Of a stretch of 64,000 nt of DNA, positions 8,583 through 16,990 are shown in pieces (positions within the stretch are counted from its first letter, which is position 1; each line of letters begins with the position of its first letter). The DNA is taken from assembly GCF_000332335.1 (NCBI RefSeq), contig NZ_KB235948.1, positions 2,740,513-2,804,512 of the forward strand, read 5' to 3'. The DNA comes from Oscillatoria sp. PCC 10802 (lineage in GTDB: Bacteria; Cyanobacteriota; Cyanobacteriia; Cyanobacteriales; Oscillatoriaceae). A program made the translations under genes and the position numbers. The notes beneath the pieces are model-generated. The model worked only from the letters and a program-made list of their open reading frames with translations. It did no database searches and was not told the origin of the DNA.

Positions 8583-8636
8583 GATTTTAGATTTTAGATT
8601 TTAGATTCCCAATCCAAAATCCAAAATCCAAAATCC
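8583..8636. repeat. Tandem (GATTTTA)x3.5 followed by (AATCCAAA/AAAATCC)x3.5. An inverted heptanucleotide tandem-repeat block (family R6).
   Basis: Read directly. A second AAAATCC array lies at 19998..20030, and an in-frame copy sits inside cobK at about 28960..29020. Confidence 0.7.
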
Positions 8637-8647
8637 TTGCATCCCAA

Positions 8648-8950
8648 CTACCAGCTGGACTTGACAACGCCTGGGAGCAACCCTTTGTGGGCCATTTCGC
8701 GAATGGCGTGGCGGGAAAGGCCAAAGTCCCGATAGTAGCCTCTGGGCCGGCCACTGAGCCAGCAGCGGTTGCGCAGGCGGTGGCGGCTGCTGTTGCGAGG
8801 CAGCTGTTGCAGCTGCCGGTGCAGTTCAATTTTATCGTCCAGCGTTTCGGCTTGGGAGAACTGTTCCTTGAGATCTTCCCGCTTTTGAGCGTACTTCTCC
8901 ACCAGTTTCTGGCGTTTCTTTTCCCGCTCAATCATGCTCTTTTTGGCCAT
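8648..8950 (-). CDS. rpsN: 30S ribosomal protein S14
   Basis: 100 aa. [20 protein letters not shown]... with the C-terminal RG(L/Y)xR...W typical of S14. Confidence 0.9.
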
Positions 8951-9091
8951 GAATGACTTTCTCAGCCTCGATTAAAGACACCATTCTCTATGGTATCAGG
9001 TTTGGGGGGGTGATGAACCGCCCCCGTGAAGAGTCGCCAAGGAAGAGGAAGAGAGGGGGCGGGGGGAGCGGGGGTTTGGGCACCGGCACCT

Positions 9092-9745
9092 TCAGCGAAG
9101 GGCAGAGGGGCACAAATCAGCGAGGGCGCAAGTCTGGCAGGCCGGCTTGCGGGCGTTACAGACGGCTCGCCCGTGGTAAATCAGCCGAATTGACCAATTT
9201 TCCCAGTCTTCTTGGGGGAGAAGCGGCATTAAGTCTCGCTCGACGCGCACCGGATCGTCGTGTTCAGTCAAGCCCAAGCGCTGGCTGAGGCGCTTGACGT
9301 GGGTGTCCACGGTGACGCCCTGATTGATGCCGAAGGCGTGGGCCATCACCACATTGGCGGTTTTTCTGGCCACTCCGGGCAATTCCAGCAGCTGTTCCAT
9401 CCGTTTGGGCACTTGACCGCCATATTTCTCAACAATCATCTGGCAAGCGCCCTGGATGTTTTTGGCCTTGTTGCGGTAGAAGCCGGTGGAGCGGATTAAG
9501 GTTTCCAGTTCTGCTAAACCGGCACCGGCAATGGCGGCGGCGTCGGGGAAGCGCGCGAAAAGTGCCGGTGTCACCTGATTCACCCGCTCATCTGTGCACT
9601 GGGCCGAGAGGATAGTGGCCACCAGCAGCTGCACCGGCGTCTCGTAGTTGAGCGTGCATGTGGCGTCTGGATACAGGCGCTTCAGGCGAATCAGGATTTC
9701 ATTAGCCCGCTGCTTTTTTGCAGACCATTTATCAGTGACGCTCAC
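9092..9745 (-). CDS. nth: endonuclease III (DNA-(apurinic or apyrimidinic site) lyase)
   Basis: HhH-GPD motif (VDTHVKRLSQRLGL) and the C-terminal 4Fe-4S Cys cluster CNARKPACQTCALADLC. Confidence 0.9.
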   Translation of the reverse strand: MSVTDKWSAKKQRANEILIRLKRLYPDATCTLNYETPVQLLVATILSAQCTDERVNQVTPALFARFPDAAAIAGAGLAELETLIRSTGFYRNKAKNIQGACQMIVEKYGGQVPKRMEQLLELPGVARKTANVVMAHAFGINQGVTVDTHVKRLSQRLGLTEHDDPVRVERDLMPLLPQEDWENWSIRLIYHGRAVCNARKPACQTCALADLCPSALR

Positions 9746-10836
9746 TGGAATAACTTCTGAATTGCCTCCAACTGGGTGGTGTCGCGGATGATCAAAAAGA
9801 TGCCCAACCCCAGCAGCAGCATTAATCCCGTCTGCATGACCCCGTCTTGAATGTGGGTGGGCAGGGGTTTGCCGCGCAGCCCTTCAATCAGCAGGAAGGC
9901 CAGCTGCCCGCCGTCCAGTGCCGGCAGGGGCAAGATATTGATAATCGCCAAGTTGACGCTGATAATCGCCGCAAACAGGAACAGGTTGCCGGTGTCACTT
10001 TGGGCGACTTTGGCACCTTCCTCTACAATTTTCACCGGCCCGGCGACCTGGCCGACGGTTTCTTTAAAGTGGGTGATCAGCTGGTAAAACCCCTGCACCG
10101 TGCCGACAACGATCGCCTGAAACCTGTCAGCGGCCAGGCTCAACACCTCGAAAGTGCTGTTGGCCCGCCGGTAGGTGGCCGTGCCGTTGGGAGCGAGCTG
10201 GACACCAATGCGACCTGTGCCGTCTGGTGCCGGTTGCGGCGTCACCCTCACGGACAGCTTGGCCTTGTTCCGCTCCAGGGTCAGTTCCAGAGGCCGGTCG
10301 GCATGGGATTGGATGGCTTCCTTCAGGACGGGGATGGCCTCTTTGGAGGAGCCCAGTTCCTTCCCGCCCACTGCTATAATAATGTCTCCTGATTTAATCC
10401 CCGCTCTAGCTGCAGCGGAGTCTTGCGAAACCACTTGGGGCACGAGAACCCCAGGCTGGTAGTTAAATCCCGCCGGCACGCCGTAAGTGCCGAACTGAGC
10501 GACTAGCACCAGATAGGCAAAGATTAAATTGGCAATCACCCCAGCGCTAATGACAATGGCTCGGTCTAGGATGGGCCGGTTGCGCAACAGATTGGGGTCA
10601 TTTTCAGGAATGTTGCTCTCCTCGGGATCGTCATCCGGGAAGCCGACAAAGCCACCCAGAGGGATCGCCCGAATCGCATACTCGGTTTCTGGCCCTTGAT
10701 ATTTCCACAGAATGGGGCCAAACCCGATAGAGAAGCGATTGACGTGAATTTTCTGCAGGCGAGCCGCCATGAAGTGGCCCAGTTCGTGTACCACAATCAA
10801 AAGCGCCAGAACCGCGATCGCTGCCAAAACTGACAT
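9742..10836 (-). CDS. rseP: RIP metalloprotease RseP (site-2 protease, M50 family with a PDZ domain)
   Basis: HELGHF zinc motif at the N-terminus. PDZ region. C-terminal LDGG motif. Confidence 0.85.
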   Translation of the reverse strand: MSVLAAIAVLALLIVVHELGHFMAARLQKIHVNRFSIGFGPILWKYQGPETEYAIRAIPLGGFVGFPDDDPEESNIPENDPNLLRNRPILDRAIVISAGVIANLIFAYLVLVAQFGTYGVPAGFNYQPGVLVPQVVSQDSAAARAGIKSGDIIIAVGGKELGSSKEAIPVLKEAIQSHADRPLELTLERNKAKLSVRVTPQPAPDGTGRIGVQLAPNGTATYRRANSTFEVLSLAADRFQAIVVGTVQGFYQLITHFKETVGQVAGPVKIVEEGAKVAQSDTGNLFLFAAIISVNLAIINILPLPALDGGQLAFLLIEGLRGKPLPTHIQDGVMQTGLMLLLGLGIFLIIRDTTQLEAIQKLFQ

Positions 10837-10997
10837 GTACTAATCCAGTGATACTACGCTATATGTGCTGCCGGCTCCCGCATTCGGGAACCTTTAATTA
10901 TTGTGACGTATTCTACGGTTCTGCGCCTGTTTCCAGTCCGGACAGACTAAAGAAGGGACTATAGCATATTAATGTTCTTTTGTCAAGGGATTTTTTT

Positions 10998-11036
10998 CTC
11001 GTTCCCAGGCTTCCCGTAAGGGTGCCTGGGAACGAG
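10998..11036. repeat. Hairpin fragment of repeat family R2 (CTCGTTCCCAGGC...GCCTGGGAACGAG), located just 3' of the serS stop.
   Basis: A 13-bp stem shared with the R2 copies at 30110, 37409, 43139 and 46761. Confidence 0.5.
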
Positions 11037-11055
11037 GGGAATTTCTTGACCGGCG

Positions 11056-12378
<1,323 letters not shown>

Positions 12379-12606
12379 TTACAAGGATTATCGTATCGCG
12401 CCTGCCGGCGGACCCTCACGCCCCGCTCGCTCAGGATGGGACGAGCCGGCAGGCAAGCCGGCTTCCGGGGCTCCCACGAGATAATAACCCATTTTGGGTT
12501 TATCCCGCATTGGGTTTTAGCATCGAATTCGCACATTAGTCAGCCAGAGGGACGCGCCCGCTATCGAAACCGAGGAAACCGTCGCGGCAAACAAGGCATC
12601 CGTCAA

Positions 12607-12855
12607 GTGACCAAATCTGTCTTTAGCGAGGAATACTACCGGTTTCGCCGCCTGCTTATCGAGGCTCGCCAAGCCGCTCAGCTCACCCAAGCCCAGCTTT
12701 CCGCCAAGCTTTCGCGTCCGCAGTCCTACGTTTCCAAGTATGAACGCGGCGAGCGCCGGCTAGATTTAATCGAGTTCTTGGAAGTGGCACAAGCCCTGGA
12801 GCTTGACCCGATAAGGTTCATCGAAAAATTGCTTAGAGAAAAAGAGGGTGAGTAG
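12607..12855 (+). CDS. XRE-family HTH protein. Probable controller (C) protein of the BglII-like R-M cassette. GTG start is inferred.
   Basis: HTH LTQAQLSAKLSRPQSYVSKYERGERR. Its stop lies 2 nt before the endonuclease ATG. The long ORF-track N-terminal extension is low-complexity and overlaps the serS promoter, so it is likely spurious. Confidence 0.5.
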   Translation: MTKSVFSEEYYRFRRLLIEARQAAQLTQAQLSAKLSRPQSYVSKYERGERRLDLIEFLEVAQALELDPIRFIEKLLREKEGE

Positions 12856-12857
12856 CC

Positions 12858-13520
12858 ATGCTCATTCAGTTTACAGATTTCAACAATGCCGATCTAGTCA
12901 TCAATACCCACTGCAACGCTGAATGGAATGATATTGAAAGCGTACTAACCGCCATGCCATTACACCTTAAAGCTTCCCGTCAGGCTGGGATTGAGGGAAA
13001 TCCAGTCTTTGACCCCGTAGGAACGAACCAATACATCAAAGCTGCCTTGGTCAAGATCGGGTGGCAATCTAACCTGCCGATTCCAGCACCATACAGATTT
13101 TTGGGCACAGACATTGACCTTGGCAAATCGGGTGTGCTTGTCGAGGTTCAGTTTTCCCACTAAGCGTTCCTGCCAAACAACACCTTACGCTCCGAGTTGT
13201 TTTTCAACGCTCAGACCCTACTAACAGGGCAGCCCACTAGGCTTGTGGTTCTGATTGCGAAAGCCCAGATGTTTCCGGCTTCCAACAGCAGTCTCTACTA
13301 CGAGACTGCCGTCCAGCAGCTGACAGCTTTAGCCGGTTATGCGTTCAAGGTGCCAATGAGAGTTGTAGGGTTATTCGAGCCAAAGAATACAACCGTACAA
13401 GTCAAATGCACTGTGTATGAGCAAGCTACCTCTCGAAAGATTGTAACTCAGGAAGACAGGCAATGTCAAATAATTGCGGGTCGTTCAGCACGCAGCCGCT
13501 GTCTTCTTCGCCTCCTGTGA
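12858..13520 (+). pseudogene. BglII-like type II restriction endonuclease, interrupted by an in-frame TAA at 13161..13163.
   Basis: Both halves (12858..13163 and 13197..13520) are in the same frame. The N-terminal half matches R.BglII (MPLH(L/V)KAS, FDPVGTNQYIK, FLGTDID.GK, LVEVQFS). The C-terminal half matches it too (ITKGHMFPASNSSLYYE-like: AKAQMFPASNSSLYYE). The stop replaces the Tyr of the BglII SNYPF segment. Confidence 0.7.
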
Positions 13521-13531
13521 GGAGTAATCGG

Positions 13532-14619
13532 TTAGAGCGACAAGTCGAGTTCCATTTGCTCCCCTATTTGAGCCGGCACCGGCTTTTTCTTTCCCTTGCC
13601 GTTGAGCTTAGCATCCACAGGACGCTCCTCCCCCCGAATACCAGCCCCAAAAGCCGCTTCCTCATACAGCAATCGCTCCTGCATCTCCTGCAAGTGGTAT
13701 TCTTCCGAGCAGATTTTTGCCTCACTCCGTTCTGTCGCTCTTTTTCCCACTTGCACGTCAAACCGGAATTTTTCGATTGGCTCGCCGGTCCGCCCCACAT
13801 AATCCCGCAGAGTTTTCAAATTGGGAAAACAGCCGCTCTCATCCGGCTCCCCACTCAGACGCCGCAGCGCAACTTGATGGTATCTCGGCTCCAGTTCCGC
13901 CCCCATGAAATGCCGCCCGAACTCTCTCGCCACAACCGCCACAGTGCCGGCTCCCATGTACGGGTCAAAAACCACCTCACCTTGATTCGTTGTCGCTAAA
14001 ATAATTCTAGCGACCAAATCTTCCGGAAATTGGCAGGGATGTATGGTTTGCTCCTCATGGTTGTGCTTGACGTTGCGAAACAGCCAGATGTCGCCAGGAT
14101 TTTTCCCGTCTGGGTTGCAGGATAGCTGCCCTTTGCGTTCGCCCCGGTAGTGCTTCTTGTTCTGGTACTTTTGCGGCACCCTGATAGCATCTAGGTTAAA
14201 GGTATAATCATCGGATTTGGTAAACCACAGCAGGGTTTCATGCCGGCAAGAGAATTTCTTTTGCGCGTGAAGTCCGTGCTGTCTCGCCCACACAATCCGG
14301 TTGCGGGAAGCCCACAAGATTCTAAAATAGGAAAGAAGCGAATGTCAAGGGTAATCAGCATCCCCCGGTCGGAAAAAGCCCCGACTTGCCAGAACAGCGA
14401 GCCGGTCTTTTTCAGAATGCGGCTGCACTCCCGCAGCACGGCTGTCTGTTCTTCCAGGTAAATCTCCAGCGCCTTCTTAGCTTCGTACTCTTTCCCCAGA
14501 TTGTACGGGGGCGAGGAGACAACCAAGTCAGCACATTCCGCCGGCAAGCCGGTCAGCAACTTCCGACAGTCCCCCAAGAAGATACTATTCAAGGGGAGAT
14601 TCTCTCTATTTCCTCTCAC
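13532..14619 (-). pseudogene. N4/N6 DNA methyltransferase (beta class; SPPY motif IV at the N-terminus, FDPYMGAGT motif I at the C-terminus), split by a frameshift near 14260..14320.
   Basis: Two overlapping ORFs in different frames (14191..14619 and 13532..14317) together make one canonical beta-class MTase. The C-terminal piece has no proper ATG. Confidence 0.7.
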
Positions 14620-14661
14620 TCAAACACCTGCCCACTACACTCCTGAAACTTGGTCGCACGC

Positions 14662-14697
14662 CAGAAACCGGGTTTCTTTTAGAAACCCGGTTTCTCC
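14662..14697. repeat. Double AGAAACCGGGTTTCT / AGAAACCCGGTTTCT palindrome (family R7).
   Basis: Read directly. Confidence 0.6.
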
Positions 14698-14784
14698 CCC
14701 AGCGGTAAAGAGAACATCTTAACACAAAATATGCTATCTGTCAACTGTGCTATCACTGATTTTTAGCCCCGCTGTTTTATGCGA

Positions 14785-14846
14785 GGGGGCGGGTTTATTC
14801 ATAGTCTGCCCTGTGCCAGAAATATCTTGGCTGAACCCGCCCCTAC
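14785..14846. mobile_element. Mini hairpin element, family R4 (GGGGGCGGGTTTAT ... AACCCGCCCCTAC). It overlaps the mntC stop.
   Basis: Inverted termini identical to 2824..2910 and 19163..19227. Confidence 0.55.
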
Positions 14847-15811
14847 TTATTAGGTGCAGCCACCGGCTCAAAGGGCACGCTCTTCCCGCCCAAAGCGTCC
14901 ACAATCGCCCGCGTATTCGCTACCATCATCTTAATATAAGAATCCCCCTCACTGCCGGCAGCGCCAATTGAGTCAGAATACAGCGGTTTCGGCGCTAATT
15001 TCACCGAAGCTTCCTCAGCCACAGTCTTAATCAGGGCTGGGTTAATCGTGGTTTCCGCAAAAATTGCCGGCACCCCCGCCGCCTTGACCGCCTCTACAAG
15101 TTTGCGCACGGTTTGAGCGCTAGGTTGCTCCTCGGTACTGATTCCTATCAAAGTTCCAACGACTTCCAGCCCATAAGCGCTTGCGTAATATTGAAACGCA
15201 TCGTGCGTGGTCACCAACCGGCGCTTGTCTGCAGGGAGAGTTTCCAGCTGCTGGCTTATCCAAGTGTCCAGCAGCATCAGTTCGCCGGTCAGTCGCGCCG
15301 CATTCTCGGTAAATTCCTCCCTATCTTCTGGCGACAGCTCAATTAAAGCATCCCGAATAGCACTCACCATCGCTATCGCATTTCCCACATCCCCCCAAAC
15401 GTGCGGATCTGGCACTTTTTCGCCTTTTTTTTCCATCTGCAGGGGCTTGACGGTTTCTCCCACCGGCACCTGACGCGCCCTCACCCCAGCAGCTTTCATC
15501 AATTTAATCAGTCCGGGTTCCAAATTGTAGCCATTATACAGAATTAGCTTTGCTTTTTCCAGGGCGATGCTGTCCGCCGGCACCGGCTCGTAAACATGGG
15601 GATCTGCGCCCGGTTTGAGAATGCCGGTGAGCTGAATCTCATCCCCCCCGACACGCTCAGCCAAGTCCTCGATGATGGTGCTCGTGGCCACCACACTGGG
15701 CTTGTCCGGCGATTCTGGACTGGTGCGGTTGGGTGCCGGTGGCGCACACCCGCTCAAAACCGCCAGCAGCAAGACAAAGCCCAGCTTCAGGGGGTGAGTT
15801 TCCAGCCTCAT
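14843..15811 (-). CDS. mntC: Metal (Mn/Zn) ABC transporter substrate-binding lipoprotein, TroA/ZnuA/MntC family.
   Basis: LSGC lipobox after a signal peptide at the inferred start 15811. Metal-binding His/Asp positions of the cluster-9 SBP family. The ORF-track 5' extension has no signal peptide and is likely spurious. Confidence 0.8.
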   Translation of the reverse strand: MRLETHPLKLGFVLLLAVLSGCAPPAPNRTSPESPDKPSVVATSTIIEDLAERVGGDEIQLTGILKPGADPHVYEPVPADSIALEKAKLILYNGYNLEPGLIKLMKAAGVRARQVPVGETVKPLQMEKKGEKVPDPHVWGDVGNAIAMVSAIRDALIELSPEDREEFTENAARLTGELMLLDTWISQQLETLPADKRRLVTTHDAFQYYASAYGLEVVGTLIGISTEEQPSAQTVRKLVEAVKAAGVPAIFAETTINPALIKTVAEEASVKLAPKPLYSDSIGAAGSEGDSYIKMMVANTRAIVDALGGKSVPFEPVAAPNK

Positions 15812-15847
15812 ACTTGGAGCGAGAAGCGTCAAGAACCCCACCCCCAA

Positions 15848-15874
15848 CCCCCTCCCCGCGAGCGGGGAGGGGGC
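15848..15874. repeat. GC hairpin CCCCCTCCCCGC-GAGC-GGGGAGGGGGC (family R8), in the mntC/mntA divergent intergenic region.
   Basis: Related hairpins at 28503..28530, 43229..43254 and 20758..20787. Confidence 0.5.
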
Positions 15875-16168
15875 TGTGTTGCTCGTCGTCGGGTGCGTTG
15901 CGCCGTCGGAAACGCACCCTGCAGCAGCAAGATCAGGCTCTGCCTCAGGGTGCCCATTCCCAGGCTCCATTTGGGAACGAGTCTTGCAAGGGGAGAGGAG
16001 ATTAGCTCCCCCAACCCTTTTAGCAAAGGGGGTTAGGGGGTTAGGTCTGCTGCTAGAGCTGTGAGCCATCACCATTGCCTATCTTTAGTATTATTCCCAC
16101 TTATAGATTTTTTCATATTTCTTTCATTTTTAGAGTACGCTGGAAAAAAGCCAACCCAAGAAGAGCCT

Positions 16169-16990
16169 ATGAACACCCTCAAGCTGTCGTCCAGTGCCGG
16201 TGAGCCAAGTCACCCCGAACCCCTTCGCAACCCGCACCCAGCCGGTCTTGAGAGAGGGGAGCCAGCGATTGCCGTCAGCCATCTAGGGGTGAAATACCGC
16301 AGCGTAGAGGCGCTGCGGGATGTCAGCGCCGTGGCCCACAGCGGCAGGCTCACCGGCATTATCGGGCCCAACGGTGCCGGGAAAAGCACCCTCCTGAAAG
16401 CCATGCTGGGATTAATTCCCACCAGCAGCGGACAGGTGCTGTGCGGCGGGAAACCGCTGTCTGAGCAGCTGGAGCGGGTGGCTTATGTGCCGCAGCGCTC
16501 GCAAATTGACTGGACCTACCCCGCCACTGTCTGGGATGTGGTGATGATGGGGCGGGTGAGGAAAACCGGCTGGTTCCGCCGCTTCAGTGCGTTGAGCCGG
16601 CGCACTGCCGCCGCAGCGCTAGAGCGCGTGGGCATGAGCGACTGCCGCCACCGGCGCATTGGCGAACTCTCTGGCGGACAGCAGCAGCGGGTATTTCTCG
16701 CTAGATCGCTGGCGCAGGAAGCGGATATCTTCTGCTTTGACGAGCCCTTTGCCGGCATTGACCAAAAAACCCAAAGCGTCATTTTCAACATTTTCCACGA
16801 ACTCGCCGCAGCCGGCAAAATCGTCCTAGTAGTCAACCACGACTTAGGAGAATCCATCACCCACTTTGACGACCTAATCTTACTCCATACAGAAATAATC
16901 GCCACCGGCCACCGGCAGCAAGTCCTAACACCAGAAAACCTTTACCGCGCCTACGGAGGTCAGGTCATGTTCTTTGACGACGCTGCATAA
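16169..16990 (+). CDS. mntA: Metal ABC transporter ATP-binding protein
   Basis: Walker A GPNGAGKST, LSGGQ signature, Walker B FDEP. Confidence 0.85.
   Translation: MNTLKLSSSAGEPSHPEPLRNPHPAGLERGEPAIAVSHLGVKYRSVEALRDVSAVAHSGRLTGIIGPNGAGKSTLLKAMLGLIPTSSGQVLCGGKPLSEQLERVAYVPQRSQIDWTYPATVWDVVMMGRVRKTGWFRRFSALSRRTAAAALERVGMSDCRHRRIGELSGGQQQRVFLARSLAQEADIFCFDEPFAGIDQKTQSVIFNIFHELAAAGKIVLVVNHDLGESITHFDDLILLHTEIIATGHRQQVLTPENLYRAYGGQVMFFDDAA

What the first reader, a model, noticed from the sequence alone, without database searches (positions are those of the whole stretch)
12858..13520. BglII-like restriction endonuclease inactivated by a single in-frame TAA
ORFs 12858..13163 and 13197..13520 are in the same frame and together align end to end with R.BglII (223 aa) as I recall it. 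The stop at 13161..13163 sits exactly where BglII has Tyr in ...VEVQFSNYPF..., so it is consistent with a TAY to TAA point mutation. The N-terminal 101-aa fragment would retain part of the active site but lack half the fold. Unless the codon is read through, this is a restriction gene pseudogenised inside an otherwise intact-looking cassette.
Basis: partly seen in the sequence, partly recalled or inferred. Interest (0 to 1): 0.55.

Follow-up and report, generated by a model that had tools for sequence, protein, structure and literature searches.

The report
Dead BglII-type restriction-modification gene cassette
This is a BglII-type restriction enzyme gene in a cyanobacterium that was knocked out by one stop codon, and its partner methylase gene is broken too, so it is an ordinary, recently dead defence cassette, not a new system.

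Summary
Window 12858..13520 (+) is one reading frame interrupted only by TAA at 13161..13163. The joined product aligns end to end with the solved BglII endonuclease (E 7.6e-56, 50% identity). The stop falls on BglII Tyr99, which is Tyr in 120 of 120 homologues and TAT in five related loci. Logan assemblies of other sequencing runs give the same 101-aa product, and one contig is 100% identical over 6086 bases, so an assembly error is unlikely.

The convergent methyltransferase gene (13532..14619, -) is frameshifted by a net 4-base loss at 14305..14310. Two sister genomes and eight intact homologues keep the frame there. Only the small HTH controller gene (about 12607..12855) looks intact.

The window is from Oscillatoria sp. 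PCC 10802. Two sister genomes carry a more eroded remnant of the same cassette at the same serS–mntC site, so the cassette is ancestral and decaying. The R gene has lost only 2 of 53 highly conserved positions, against about 9 expected if it had drifted since the lineages split, so the inactivation is recent. AGATCT is depleted 12-fold, but about 20 other palindromes are equally depleted. Verdict: an ordinary pseudogenised type II R-M system of low interest.

The parts
12858..13520 (+). R pseudogene: a BglII/BstYI-family type II restriction endonuclease, 220 codons with one internal stop
   Evidence: Single-frame translation. PDB BglII E 7.6e-56 over 1-201 against 1-199. Pfam PF09195 above cut-off. 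60-69% identical to intact cyanobacterial homologues.
13161..13163 (+). The disabling TAA, replacing the conserved Tyr (BglII Tyr99), three codons after the catalytic E-x-Q
   Evidence: Tyr in 120 of 120 homologues. TAT in loci L001-L005. Reproduced in other assemblies.
12858..13163 (+). The only translatable product: a 101-aa N-terminal fragment that keeps D87, E96 and Q98 (BglII D84, E93, Q95) but lacks the C-terminal half
   Evidence: Annotated as hypothetical protein WP_017716967.1.
13532..14619 (-). M pseudogene: a beta-class N4/N6 DNA methyltransferase with SPPY in the 5' part and the FDPYMGAGT AdoMet motif in the 3' part, split over two frames
   Evidence: PF01555 hits cover profile 2-57 in one frame and 72-219 in the other. 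The repaired product is 73-81% identical, in one uninterrupted match, to the methyltransferases next to eight intact R homologues.
14305..14310 (-). Frameshift lesion in M: the window has GGGCTTCCCGC where the sister genomes have GGGCTGATTCCCCGC, a net loss of 4 bases
   Evidence: DNA alignment A2 with L008, L012 and Tychonema L001. The same split gene calls appear in the Logan contig.
12607..12855 (+). Controller (C) protein gene, about 82 aa, HTH_3. The start is uncertain: GTG 12607 is preferred, and gene callers use ATG 12436. Its stop lies 2 bases before the R start.
   Evidence: Pfam HTH_3 6.5e-10. PDB matches to an 83-aa XRE-family protein (4.5e-17) and to C.AhdI, C.BclI and C.Esp1396I. 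BglII is a C-dependent system (PMC2632904).
12485..12516 (+). Candidate C-box: two adjacent 16-base imperfect palindromes, TAACCCATTTTGGGTT and TATCCCGCATTGGGTT
   Evidence: It is unique in the window. It lies in the cassette-specific DNA that starts at 12473. Function is inferred only.
12473..13620 (.). DNA present in PCC 10802 but absent from the sister genomes (C gene, R gene and the last ~90 bases of M), which carry two Ser/Thr kinase genes in its place
   Evidence: blastn of the window against L008 and L012. Gene tables. tblastn finds only an M remnant there.

Best explanation
This is a decaying type IIP restriction-modification cassette of the BglII kind in Oscillatoria sp. PCC 10802. 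It lies between serS and the Mn/Zn ABC-transporter binding-protein gene. Its layout is controller gene, then R gene, facing a convergent M gene.

When intact, it would work as the BglII system does. The methyltransferase marks the host's sites, probably AGATCT. The homodimeric PD-(D/E)xK endonuclease, with Q in place of K, cuts unmarked incoming DNA. The C protein delays and limits R expression.

In this strain a single TAT to TAA change at the invariant Tyr ends R after 101 residues. That removes the C-terminal half of the fold, so no endonuclease is made. The M gene is also dead, from a net 4-base loss that shifts its frame.

The most likely order is R first and M second, because losing M while R is active kills the cell. 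Once R is gone, M is free to decay.

The cassette was inherited vertically and has decayed separately in sister lineages. The inactivation in PCC 10802 is recent.

Shown: homology, both lesions, their reproducibility, synteny, and the low level of decay. Inferred: AGATCT specificity, the order of events, and the C-box.
For: - **Homology.** R aligns end to end with solved BglII, E 7.6e-56, and passes PF09195. D87, E96 and Q98 are invariant across homologues and match the BglII motif. Q in place of K in BglII is stated in PMC4081073.
- **R lesion.** The stop replaces a Tyr that is invariant in 120 of 120 homologues and is TAT in five related loci. Other assemblies give the same sequence.
- **M lesion.** M is split over two frames. 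The lesion is defined against L008, L012 and L001. Methyltransferases next to eight intact homologues are uninterrupted.
- **C gene.** An HTH controller-like gene lies immediately upstream of R.
- **Ancestry.** Sister genomes (O. princeps RMCB-10 and a Prado101-like metagenome contig) have the same flanks at about 92-95% DNA identity. They keep only an M remnant: residues 1-119 at 94% identity plus a 56-base 3' piece.
- **Recency.** Only 2 of 53 positions conserved at 95% or more are changed in R. About 9.1 would be expected (P about 0.003) under neutral drift for half the serS dS of 0.16-0.19.
- **No suppressor seen.** No tRNA gene, and so no suppressor tRNA, lies in the window.
Against: - No direct functional data exist. 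Methylation state and endonuclease activity were not measured.
- The other read sets may come from the same culture. They exclude an assembly error but not a mutation acquired in culture.
- AGATCT specificity is unproven. The window's sub-clade has His where BglII has Asn98, and AGATCT depletion is not specific.
- The number of stop codons alone does not date the event. P(at most 1 stop) is 0.48 even for drift since the split.
- Low-level read-through of UAA, or assembly of the protein fragments, cannot be excluded from sequence alone.
Confidence: 0.9

Rival explanations
1. The overall picture is the same, but the order is reversed. The M gene frameshifted first, which is lethal with an active endonuclease. 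The TAA in R was then selected as the rescuing mutation in the survivors.
For: Both genes carry exactly one lesion site each and are otherwise well conserved. The two events therefore happened close together in time. Established knowledge of post-segregational killing by type II R-M systems says that loss of M selects strongly for R-null survivors.
Against: It needs a rescuing mutation to arise within the few generations before methylation is diluted out, which is much rarer than R loss followed by neutral M decay. Sequence cannot settle the order.
Confidence: 0.15
2. The stop and/or the frameshift are sequencing or assembly errors, and the genes are really intact.
For: Each lesion is small. 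One way to read the M lesion includes a 1-base loss in a run of four C, a classic error-prone context.
Against: A Logan assembly of SRR3926829 reads is 100% identical over 6086 bases spanning both lesions. The same 101-aa product is called in SRR29904083, and the contig recurs in 3 samples. A T-to-A substitution in non-repetitive sequence is not a typical systematic error.
Confidence: 0.03
3. The genes still function despite the lesions. This could happen by read-through of the UAA, by restart at TTG 13197 giving two fragments that assemble, or by the two methyltransferase fragments assembling into a split enzyme, as known for a few two-subunit methyltransferases.
For: The sequence on both sides of each lesion is still well conserved. 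Split methyltransferases exist elsewhere (from my own knowledge, e.g. M.AquI; not checked here).
Against: - UAA followed by G is an efficient terminator.
- No suppressor tRNA lies in the window.
- A restart at TTG 13197 would drop residues 102-113, which include the invariant F104, L105, N107 and E113, and no Shine-Dalgarno sequence precedes it.
- The M lesion is derived relative to sister genomes whose frame is continuous.
- No X XXY YYZ slippery site is visible at the shift.
- Sister lineages have deleted most of the cassette, so it is dispensable.
Confidence: 0.02

Closest known systems
BglII restriction-modification system of Bacillus (R.BglII, PDB 1D2I/1DFM/1ES8; M.BglII; C.BglII)
   Same: The R product is 50% identical over 198 aligned positions and collinear from end to end. 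It has the same D...E-x-Q catalytic motif (PMC4081073). An HTH controller gene sits directly upstream of R, as in the C-dependent BglII system (PMC2632904). The partner is an N4/N6-family methyltransferase with an SPPY motif.
   Different: R is cut short by TAA at the Tyr99 position and M is frameshifted, so neither enzyme can be made. The host is a cyanobacterium. His replaces BglII Asn98. AGATCT specificity was not shown.
Intact cyanobacterial BglII/BstYI-family R-M pairs (Tychonema sp. LEGE 07203, Microcoleus spp., Nostoc/Nodularia entries)
   Same: R is 60-69% identical and M 73-81% identical. They share the convergent R/M layout with an 11-base gap between the stop codons in Tychonema and Microcoleus L002, and the same FSHY(A/S)F motif around the lesion.
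   Different: Those copies have uninterrupted R and M genes and no C gene. Five of them appear to start R at ATT after a strong AAGGAGG. The window's copy has ATG, a C gene and two lesions.
M-gene remnant at the same locus in Oscillatoria princeps RMCB-10 and a Prado101-like contig
   Same: Same serS–mntC position and orientation. The 5' 119 codons of M are 94% identical, and the flanks are about 92-95% identical in DNA.
   Different: Those genomes have lost 587 bases inside M together with the 3' end of M, all of R and the C gene, and carry two Ser/Thr kinase genes there. They keep the correct frame at the site where the window has its 4-base loss.
BstYI (RGATCY), the other characterised member of Pfam PF09195
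   Same: Same Pfam family. The literature describes it as BglII-like (PMC2731914).
   Different: PDB sequence search at E 0.001 or better returned only BglII, not BstYI. The window's protein is therefore much closer to BglII.

Membership tests
BglII/BstYI restriction endonuclease family (Pfam PF09195) | Sequence match to the family profile above the curated threshold, over the whole domain | tested here: met
   The joined product scores 30.3 bits against a cut-off of 26, covering profile 1-161 of 163. The N-terminal fragment alone scores 19.3, below the cut-off.
BglII/BstYI restriction endonuclease family (Pfam PF09195) | Collinear homology to the solved BglII protein on both sides of the stop | tested here: met
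   phmmer E 7.6e-56, residues 1-201 against 1-199. Identity is 56% before the stop and 43% after it.
BglII/BstYI restriction endonuclease family (Pfam PF09195) | PD-(D/E)xK-type catalytic motif in the BglII form, D...E-x-Q | tested here: met
   D87, E96 and Q98 align with BglII D84, E93 and Q95 and are invariant in 19 sequences. Q replacing K in BglII is stated in PMC4081073.
Functional type II restriction endonuclease gene | Uninterrupted reading frame for the full-length protein | tested here: not met
   TAA at 13161..13163, reproduced in other assemblies.
Functional type II R-M system | Intact cognate methyltransferase gene next to R | tested here: not met
   M is split between two frames by a net 4-base loss relative to L008, L012 and L001.
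BglII isoschizomer (AGATCT specificity, m4C methylation) | Cleavage and methylation at AGATCT | not testable with these tools
   Support is indirect only: 50% identity to BglII, and AGATCT at 1 copy against 12.0 ± 3.4 expected in the window. About 20 other palindromic hexamers are depleted as much.
C-protein-controlled R-M system | Small HTH controller gene immediately upstream of, and co-oriented with, R | tested here: met
   HTH_3 6.5e-10. PDB matches to C.AhdI, C.BclI and C.Esp1396I. The C stop lies 2 bases before the R ATG.
C-protein-controlled R-M system | C-box operator (paired palindromic boxes) upstream of the C gene | tested here: inconclusive
   Two adjacent 16-base imperfect palindromes lie at 12485..12516 and are unique in the window. 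They sit about 90 bases before the preferred start. No consensus promoter was found on the + strand. No homologous C loci were available for comparison.

The most novel reading that the evidence does not exclude
The cassette may not be wholly inert. The C gene looks intact, and so does the candidate C-box. The C protein could be kept as an orphan regulator that triggers premature endonuclease expression, and so exclusion, from incoming R-M systems with the same C-box specificity. Alternatively, the 101-aa fragment, which keeps the complete catalytic motif, may have a residual role such as nicking, DNA binding or dominant-negative anti-restriction. Nothing here tests either idea. The evidence only shows that C has no visible lesion.
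Probability: 0.04. Interest if true: 0.45.

Novelty: new member of a known kind. Interest (0 to 1): 0.12.

Why it matters
It matters little beyond annotation. WP_017716967.1, now "hypothetical protein", is the N-terminal fragment of a BglII-family endonuclease pseudogene. The two adjacent methyltransferase ORFs are halves of one frameshifted gene.

For anyone transforming Oscillatoria sp. PCC 10802, this cassette should not be a restriction barrier. AGATCT sites are also probably unmethylated by it.

As a small evolutionary example, it shows one ancestral R-M cassette at a fixed chromosomal site decaying along different routes in sister lineages. One lineage has point lesions; the other has a large deletion and replacement. 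The host genome still carries the avoidance of the palindromic site.

Tried and rejected
- **Assembly error.** Rejected. The Logan contig of SRR3926829 is 100% identical over both lesions, and the same fragment is called in SRR29904083.
- **Closely related intact copy.** I looked for one that would show the ancestral codon directly. None exists in the collections searched. The best homologue is 69% identical, the 101-aa fragment's 90% cluster has one member, and the sister genomes have lost R.
- **Dating by stop codons.** Counting stops is not discriminating: P(at most 1 stop) is 0.48 for drift since the split. I replaced it with the conserved-position test.
- **AGATCT avoidance as proof of specificity.** The depletion is real but shared with about 20 other palindromes.
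- **Suppressor tRNA.** No tRNA gene lies in the window.
- **Rfam.** A scan of 11000..16500 found nothing.
- **BglII DNA-contact residues.** Two literature searches found no open text listing them. The meaning of His at the Asn98 position is left open.
- **NCBIfam.** It has no model that hits R, and M hits only generic adenine-methyltransferase models below their cut-offs. It adds nothing on specificity.
- **C genes next to the nearest R homologues.** None was found in eight loci, so the candidate C-box could not be tested by comparison. A look-up of P0016 found no contig.

Full report
**1. The observation**

The region was read directly and its ORFs were listed. ORF 12858..13163 (ATG, 101 aa) and ORF 13197..13520 (TTG, 107 aa) are in the same frame. 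Translating 12858..13520 as one frame gives 220 codons with a single internal stop, TAA at 13161..13163, in the context VEVQFSH*AFLPNNTLRSELF.

**2. Identity of the gene**

- With the stop masked, the product matches one set of solved structures, the BglII endonuclease (1d2i, 1dfm, 1es8). The match covers residues 1-201 against 1-199, with E 7.6e-56 and 192 bits.
- Identity is 50% over 198 aligned positions: 56% before the stop and 43% after it. Both halves therefore belong to one BglII-like protein.
- Pfam gives PF09195 (Endonuc-BglII) at 30.3 bits against a cut-off of 26, covering profile positions 1-161 of 163. The N-terminal fragment alone falls below the cut-off.
- A search of the large protein collection found 473 homologues, all with PF09195. 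The best is 69% identical, and many are cyanobacterial: Nostoc, Nodularia, Fischerella, Crocosphaera, Microcoleaceae.

**3. The stop codon**

- In the BglII alignment the stop falls on Tyr99 of FSNYPF.
- In an alignment with 18 homologues that column is Tyr in every one. The nearest relatives read FSHYAF or FSHYSF, matching the window's FSH*AF.
- Across the 120 best homologues the column is Tyr in 120 of 120.
- In five related genomic loci (Tychonema sp. LEGE 07203, three Microcoleus, one MAG) the codon is TAT. A single third-position change, TAT to TAA, accounts for the stop.
- The catalytic motif lies wholly upstream of the stop. D87, E96 and Q98 (BglII D84, E93, Q95) are invariant in the alignment. 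The review PMC4081073 states that BglII has Q in place of the usual K.
- The 101-aa product therefore keeps the catalytic motif but loses the C-terminal 119 residues. These hold many invariant positions, including F104, L105, N107, E113 and the MFPASNSSLYYE block.

**4. Is it an artefact?**

- An exact look-up of the 101-aa product found it in Logan assemblies of two sequencing runs, SRR3926829 (a contig seen in three samples) and SRR29904083. Both show the same neighbouring gene calls.
- The SRR3926829 contig is 100% identical to window 8607..14692. That stretch spans the stop and the methyltransferase lesion described below.
- The exact proteins identify the source as Oscillatoria sp. PCC 10802, filed by NCBI under Kamptonema formosum. 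The fragment is WP_017716967.1, "hypothetical protein".
- An assembly error is therefore very unlikely. A mutation that arose in the culture collection cannot be excluded.

**5. The rest of the cassette**

*Controller gene.* Directly upstream of R is a small HTH gene, which ends 2 bases before the R start.
- It matches Pfam HTH_3 at 6.5e-10.
- It resembles an 83-aa XRE-family protein (4.5e-17) and the R-M controller proteins C.AhdI, C.BclI and C.Esp1396I.
- BglII is one of the experimentally C-dependent systems (PMC2632904).
- The frame is open from 12301. I prefer GTG 12607 as the start, which gives about 82 aa, the usual size. Gene callers chose ATG 12436.

*Methyltransferase gene.* Downstream, converging on R with an 11-base gap, is an N4/N6-family methyltransferase gene (13532..14619, minus strand). 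It is not intact.
- The 5' part, which carries SPPY, matches PF01555 profile positions 2-57 in one frame.
- The 3' part, which carries the FDPYMGAGT AdoMet motif, matches positions 72-219 in another frame.
- DNA alignment with two sister genomes and Tychonema locates the lesion. They read TGTGGGCTGATTCCCCGCAACCGG (C-G-L-I-P-R-N-R), and the window reads TGTGGGCTTCCCGCAACCGG. This is a net loss of 4 bases at 14305..14310.
- The loss can be read as a 4-base deletion plus one substitution. It can also be read as an in-frame 3-base deletion followed by the loss of one C from a run of four.
- The methyltransferases next to eight intact R homologues align to the repaired window product in a single uninterrupted match, at 73-81% identity.
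Both enzymes are disabled.

**6. History of the locus**

Look-ups with RseP proteins of close relatives fetched the same chromosomal region from Oscillatoria princeps RMCB-10 (L008) and a Prado101-like metagenome contig (L012). The flanking genes (ABC transporter, mntC/ZnuA-type binding protein, serS, rseP, nth) match the window at about 92-95% DNA identity.

Between mntC and serS these genomes keep only two pieces of the cassette:
- the first 119 codons of the methyltransferase gene, at 94% amino-acid identity and in frame across the window's lesion site;
- a 56-base piece of its 3' region.

Window 13677..14263 (inside M) and 12473..13620 (the end of M, all of R, and the C gene) have no counterpart there. 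Two Ser/Thr kinase genes lie in that place instead.

The cassette was therefore already at this site in the common ancestor. It has been destroyed along two routes: large deletion and replacement in the princeps lineage, and two small lesions in PCC 10802.

**7. How recent**

- The serS dS between the window and the sister genomes is 0.16-0.19.
- If R had drifted neutrally for half of that (0.085 per site), about 9.1 of the 53 positions that are at least 95% conserved among homologues should have changed.
- Only 2 have changed: the stop itself and Q150T. In the simulation at most 2 changes has a probability of about 0.003. The observed count fits about 0.01-0.02 substitutions per site.
- Intact homologues deviate at 0.97 such positions on average. 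Apart from the stop, the gene looks like a working one.
- Counting stop codons alone cannot date the event.
- M carries a single lesion site and is otherwise collinear with intact relatives.
- Both inactivations are therefore recent compared with the split from the sister lineages. This rests on serS dS standing in for the neutral rate.

**8. Mechanism and order of events (inferred)**

When intact, this would be a standard type IIP system of the BglII kind:
- M methylates the host's sites.
- The R homodimer cuts unmethylated sites.
- C activates and then represses the C-R operon, so that R appears only after M has acted. The review PMC12707154 describes this circuit.

From established knowledge of post-segregational killing, losing M while R is active is lethal. 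The most likely sequence is therefore the nonsense mutation in R first, followed by neutral decay of M. The reverse order, with the R stop selected as a rescue, is possible but needs a rarer coincidence.

Read-through or fragment complementation is unlikely for several reasons:
- UAA followed by G is an efficient stop.
- No tRNA gene lies in the window.
- The TTG restart would omit invariant residues and has no ribosome-binding site.
- No X XXY YYZ slippery heptamer is visible at the M shift.
- Sister lineages have discarded most of the cassette.

**9. Specificity**

AGATCT occurs once in 64 kb, against 12.0 ± 3.4 expected from dinucleotide shuffles. This fits long exposure to an AGATCT-specific endonuclease. 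However, a survey of all 64 palindromic hexamers shows 12 with no copies at all. AGATCT ranks sixteenth for depletion, so the signal is not specific. Specificity remains inferred from 50% identity to BglII. The window's sub-clade has His where BglII has Asn98, as do 16 of 120 homologues. I could not find open literature listing the BglII base contacts.

**10. Candidate C-box**

Two adjacent 16-base imperfect palindromes, TAACCCATTTTGGGTT and TATCCCGCATTGGGTT, lie at 12485..12516. This is just inside the cassette-specific DNA that begins at 12473. The first of the two has no other close copy in the window. Their paired-box form resembles the double-box C-boxes described in PMC2632904. No consensus promoter was found beside them. 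None of the eight related loci has a C gene for comparison. This part is a suggestion only.

**11. Comparison with what is known, and verdict**

The gene is a member of the BglII/BstYI family by sequence, collinearity and catalytic motif. It fails the tests for a functional gene and a functional system. Pseudogenised restriction genes and eroded R-M cassettes are common in bacterial genomes (my own knowledge). Nothing here departs from that pattern.

The finding is real and well read by the first stage, but it is ordinary. Its value is a corrected annotation and a tidy example of lineage-specific decay of an inherited R-M cassette. Interest is 0.12.

Noticed in passing
L001:5990-6010, L002, L003:1780-1800, L004, L005 (aligned with window 12800-12900): In five related genomes the R gene has ATT where the window has its ATG start, 7 bases after a strong AAGGAGG. 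This suggests an ATT start codon, perhaps to keep endonuclease translation low in systems that lack a C gene. It would also explain the many 188-190-aa database entries that begin at the internal MPLH.
   Followed up: partly
L001-L005, L016-L018 versus window 12607-12855: None of eight loci with intact R and M homologues carries a controller gene. The window's cassette is the only one seen here with a C gene, so C was either gained in this lineage or lost in the others.
   Followed up: partly
window 14661-14696: A 36-base hairpin repeat (GAAACCGGGTTTCT..AGAAACCCGGTTTC) lies upstream of the M gene. Further copies occur at several places in the sister loci L008 and L012. The Logan contig ends inside it, as expected for a dispersed repeat.
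   Followed up: no
window 1-64000: Palindrome avoidance is very broad. Twelve palindromic hexamers have no copy in 64 kb (for example GGCGCC expected 36, CCGCGG 27, CGGCCG 27, CCATGG 20, TTCGAA 20). GCCGGC is three times over-represented, 108 against 36.
   Followed up: partly
L008:10433-14125 and L012:10251-13967, versus window 9742-9745: The sister genomes carry a gene of about 3.7 kb for a 1230-aa NHL-repeat protein between rseP and nth. In the window those two genes overlap by 4 bases.
   Followed up: no
L008:3905-6488 and L012:4089-6618: Two tandem Ser/Thr protein kinase genes occupy the place of the lost C and R genes in the sister genomes. How they came to be there was not examined.
   Followed up: no
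window 14843-16075 (-): The mntC/ZnuA-type ORF is 410 aa in the window, against 322-323 aa for the genes called in the sister genomes. DNA homology to the sister loci is interrupted between window 15806 and 16030. The N-terminal extension may just be an over-long ORF.
   Followed up: no
window 13158-13160 (His codon before the stop): His replaces BglII Asn98 in the window and in 16 of 120 homologues, all in the window's sub-clade. Whether this changes base recognition could not be checked.
   Followed up: partly
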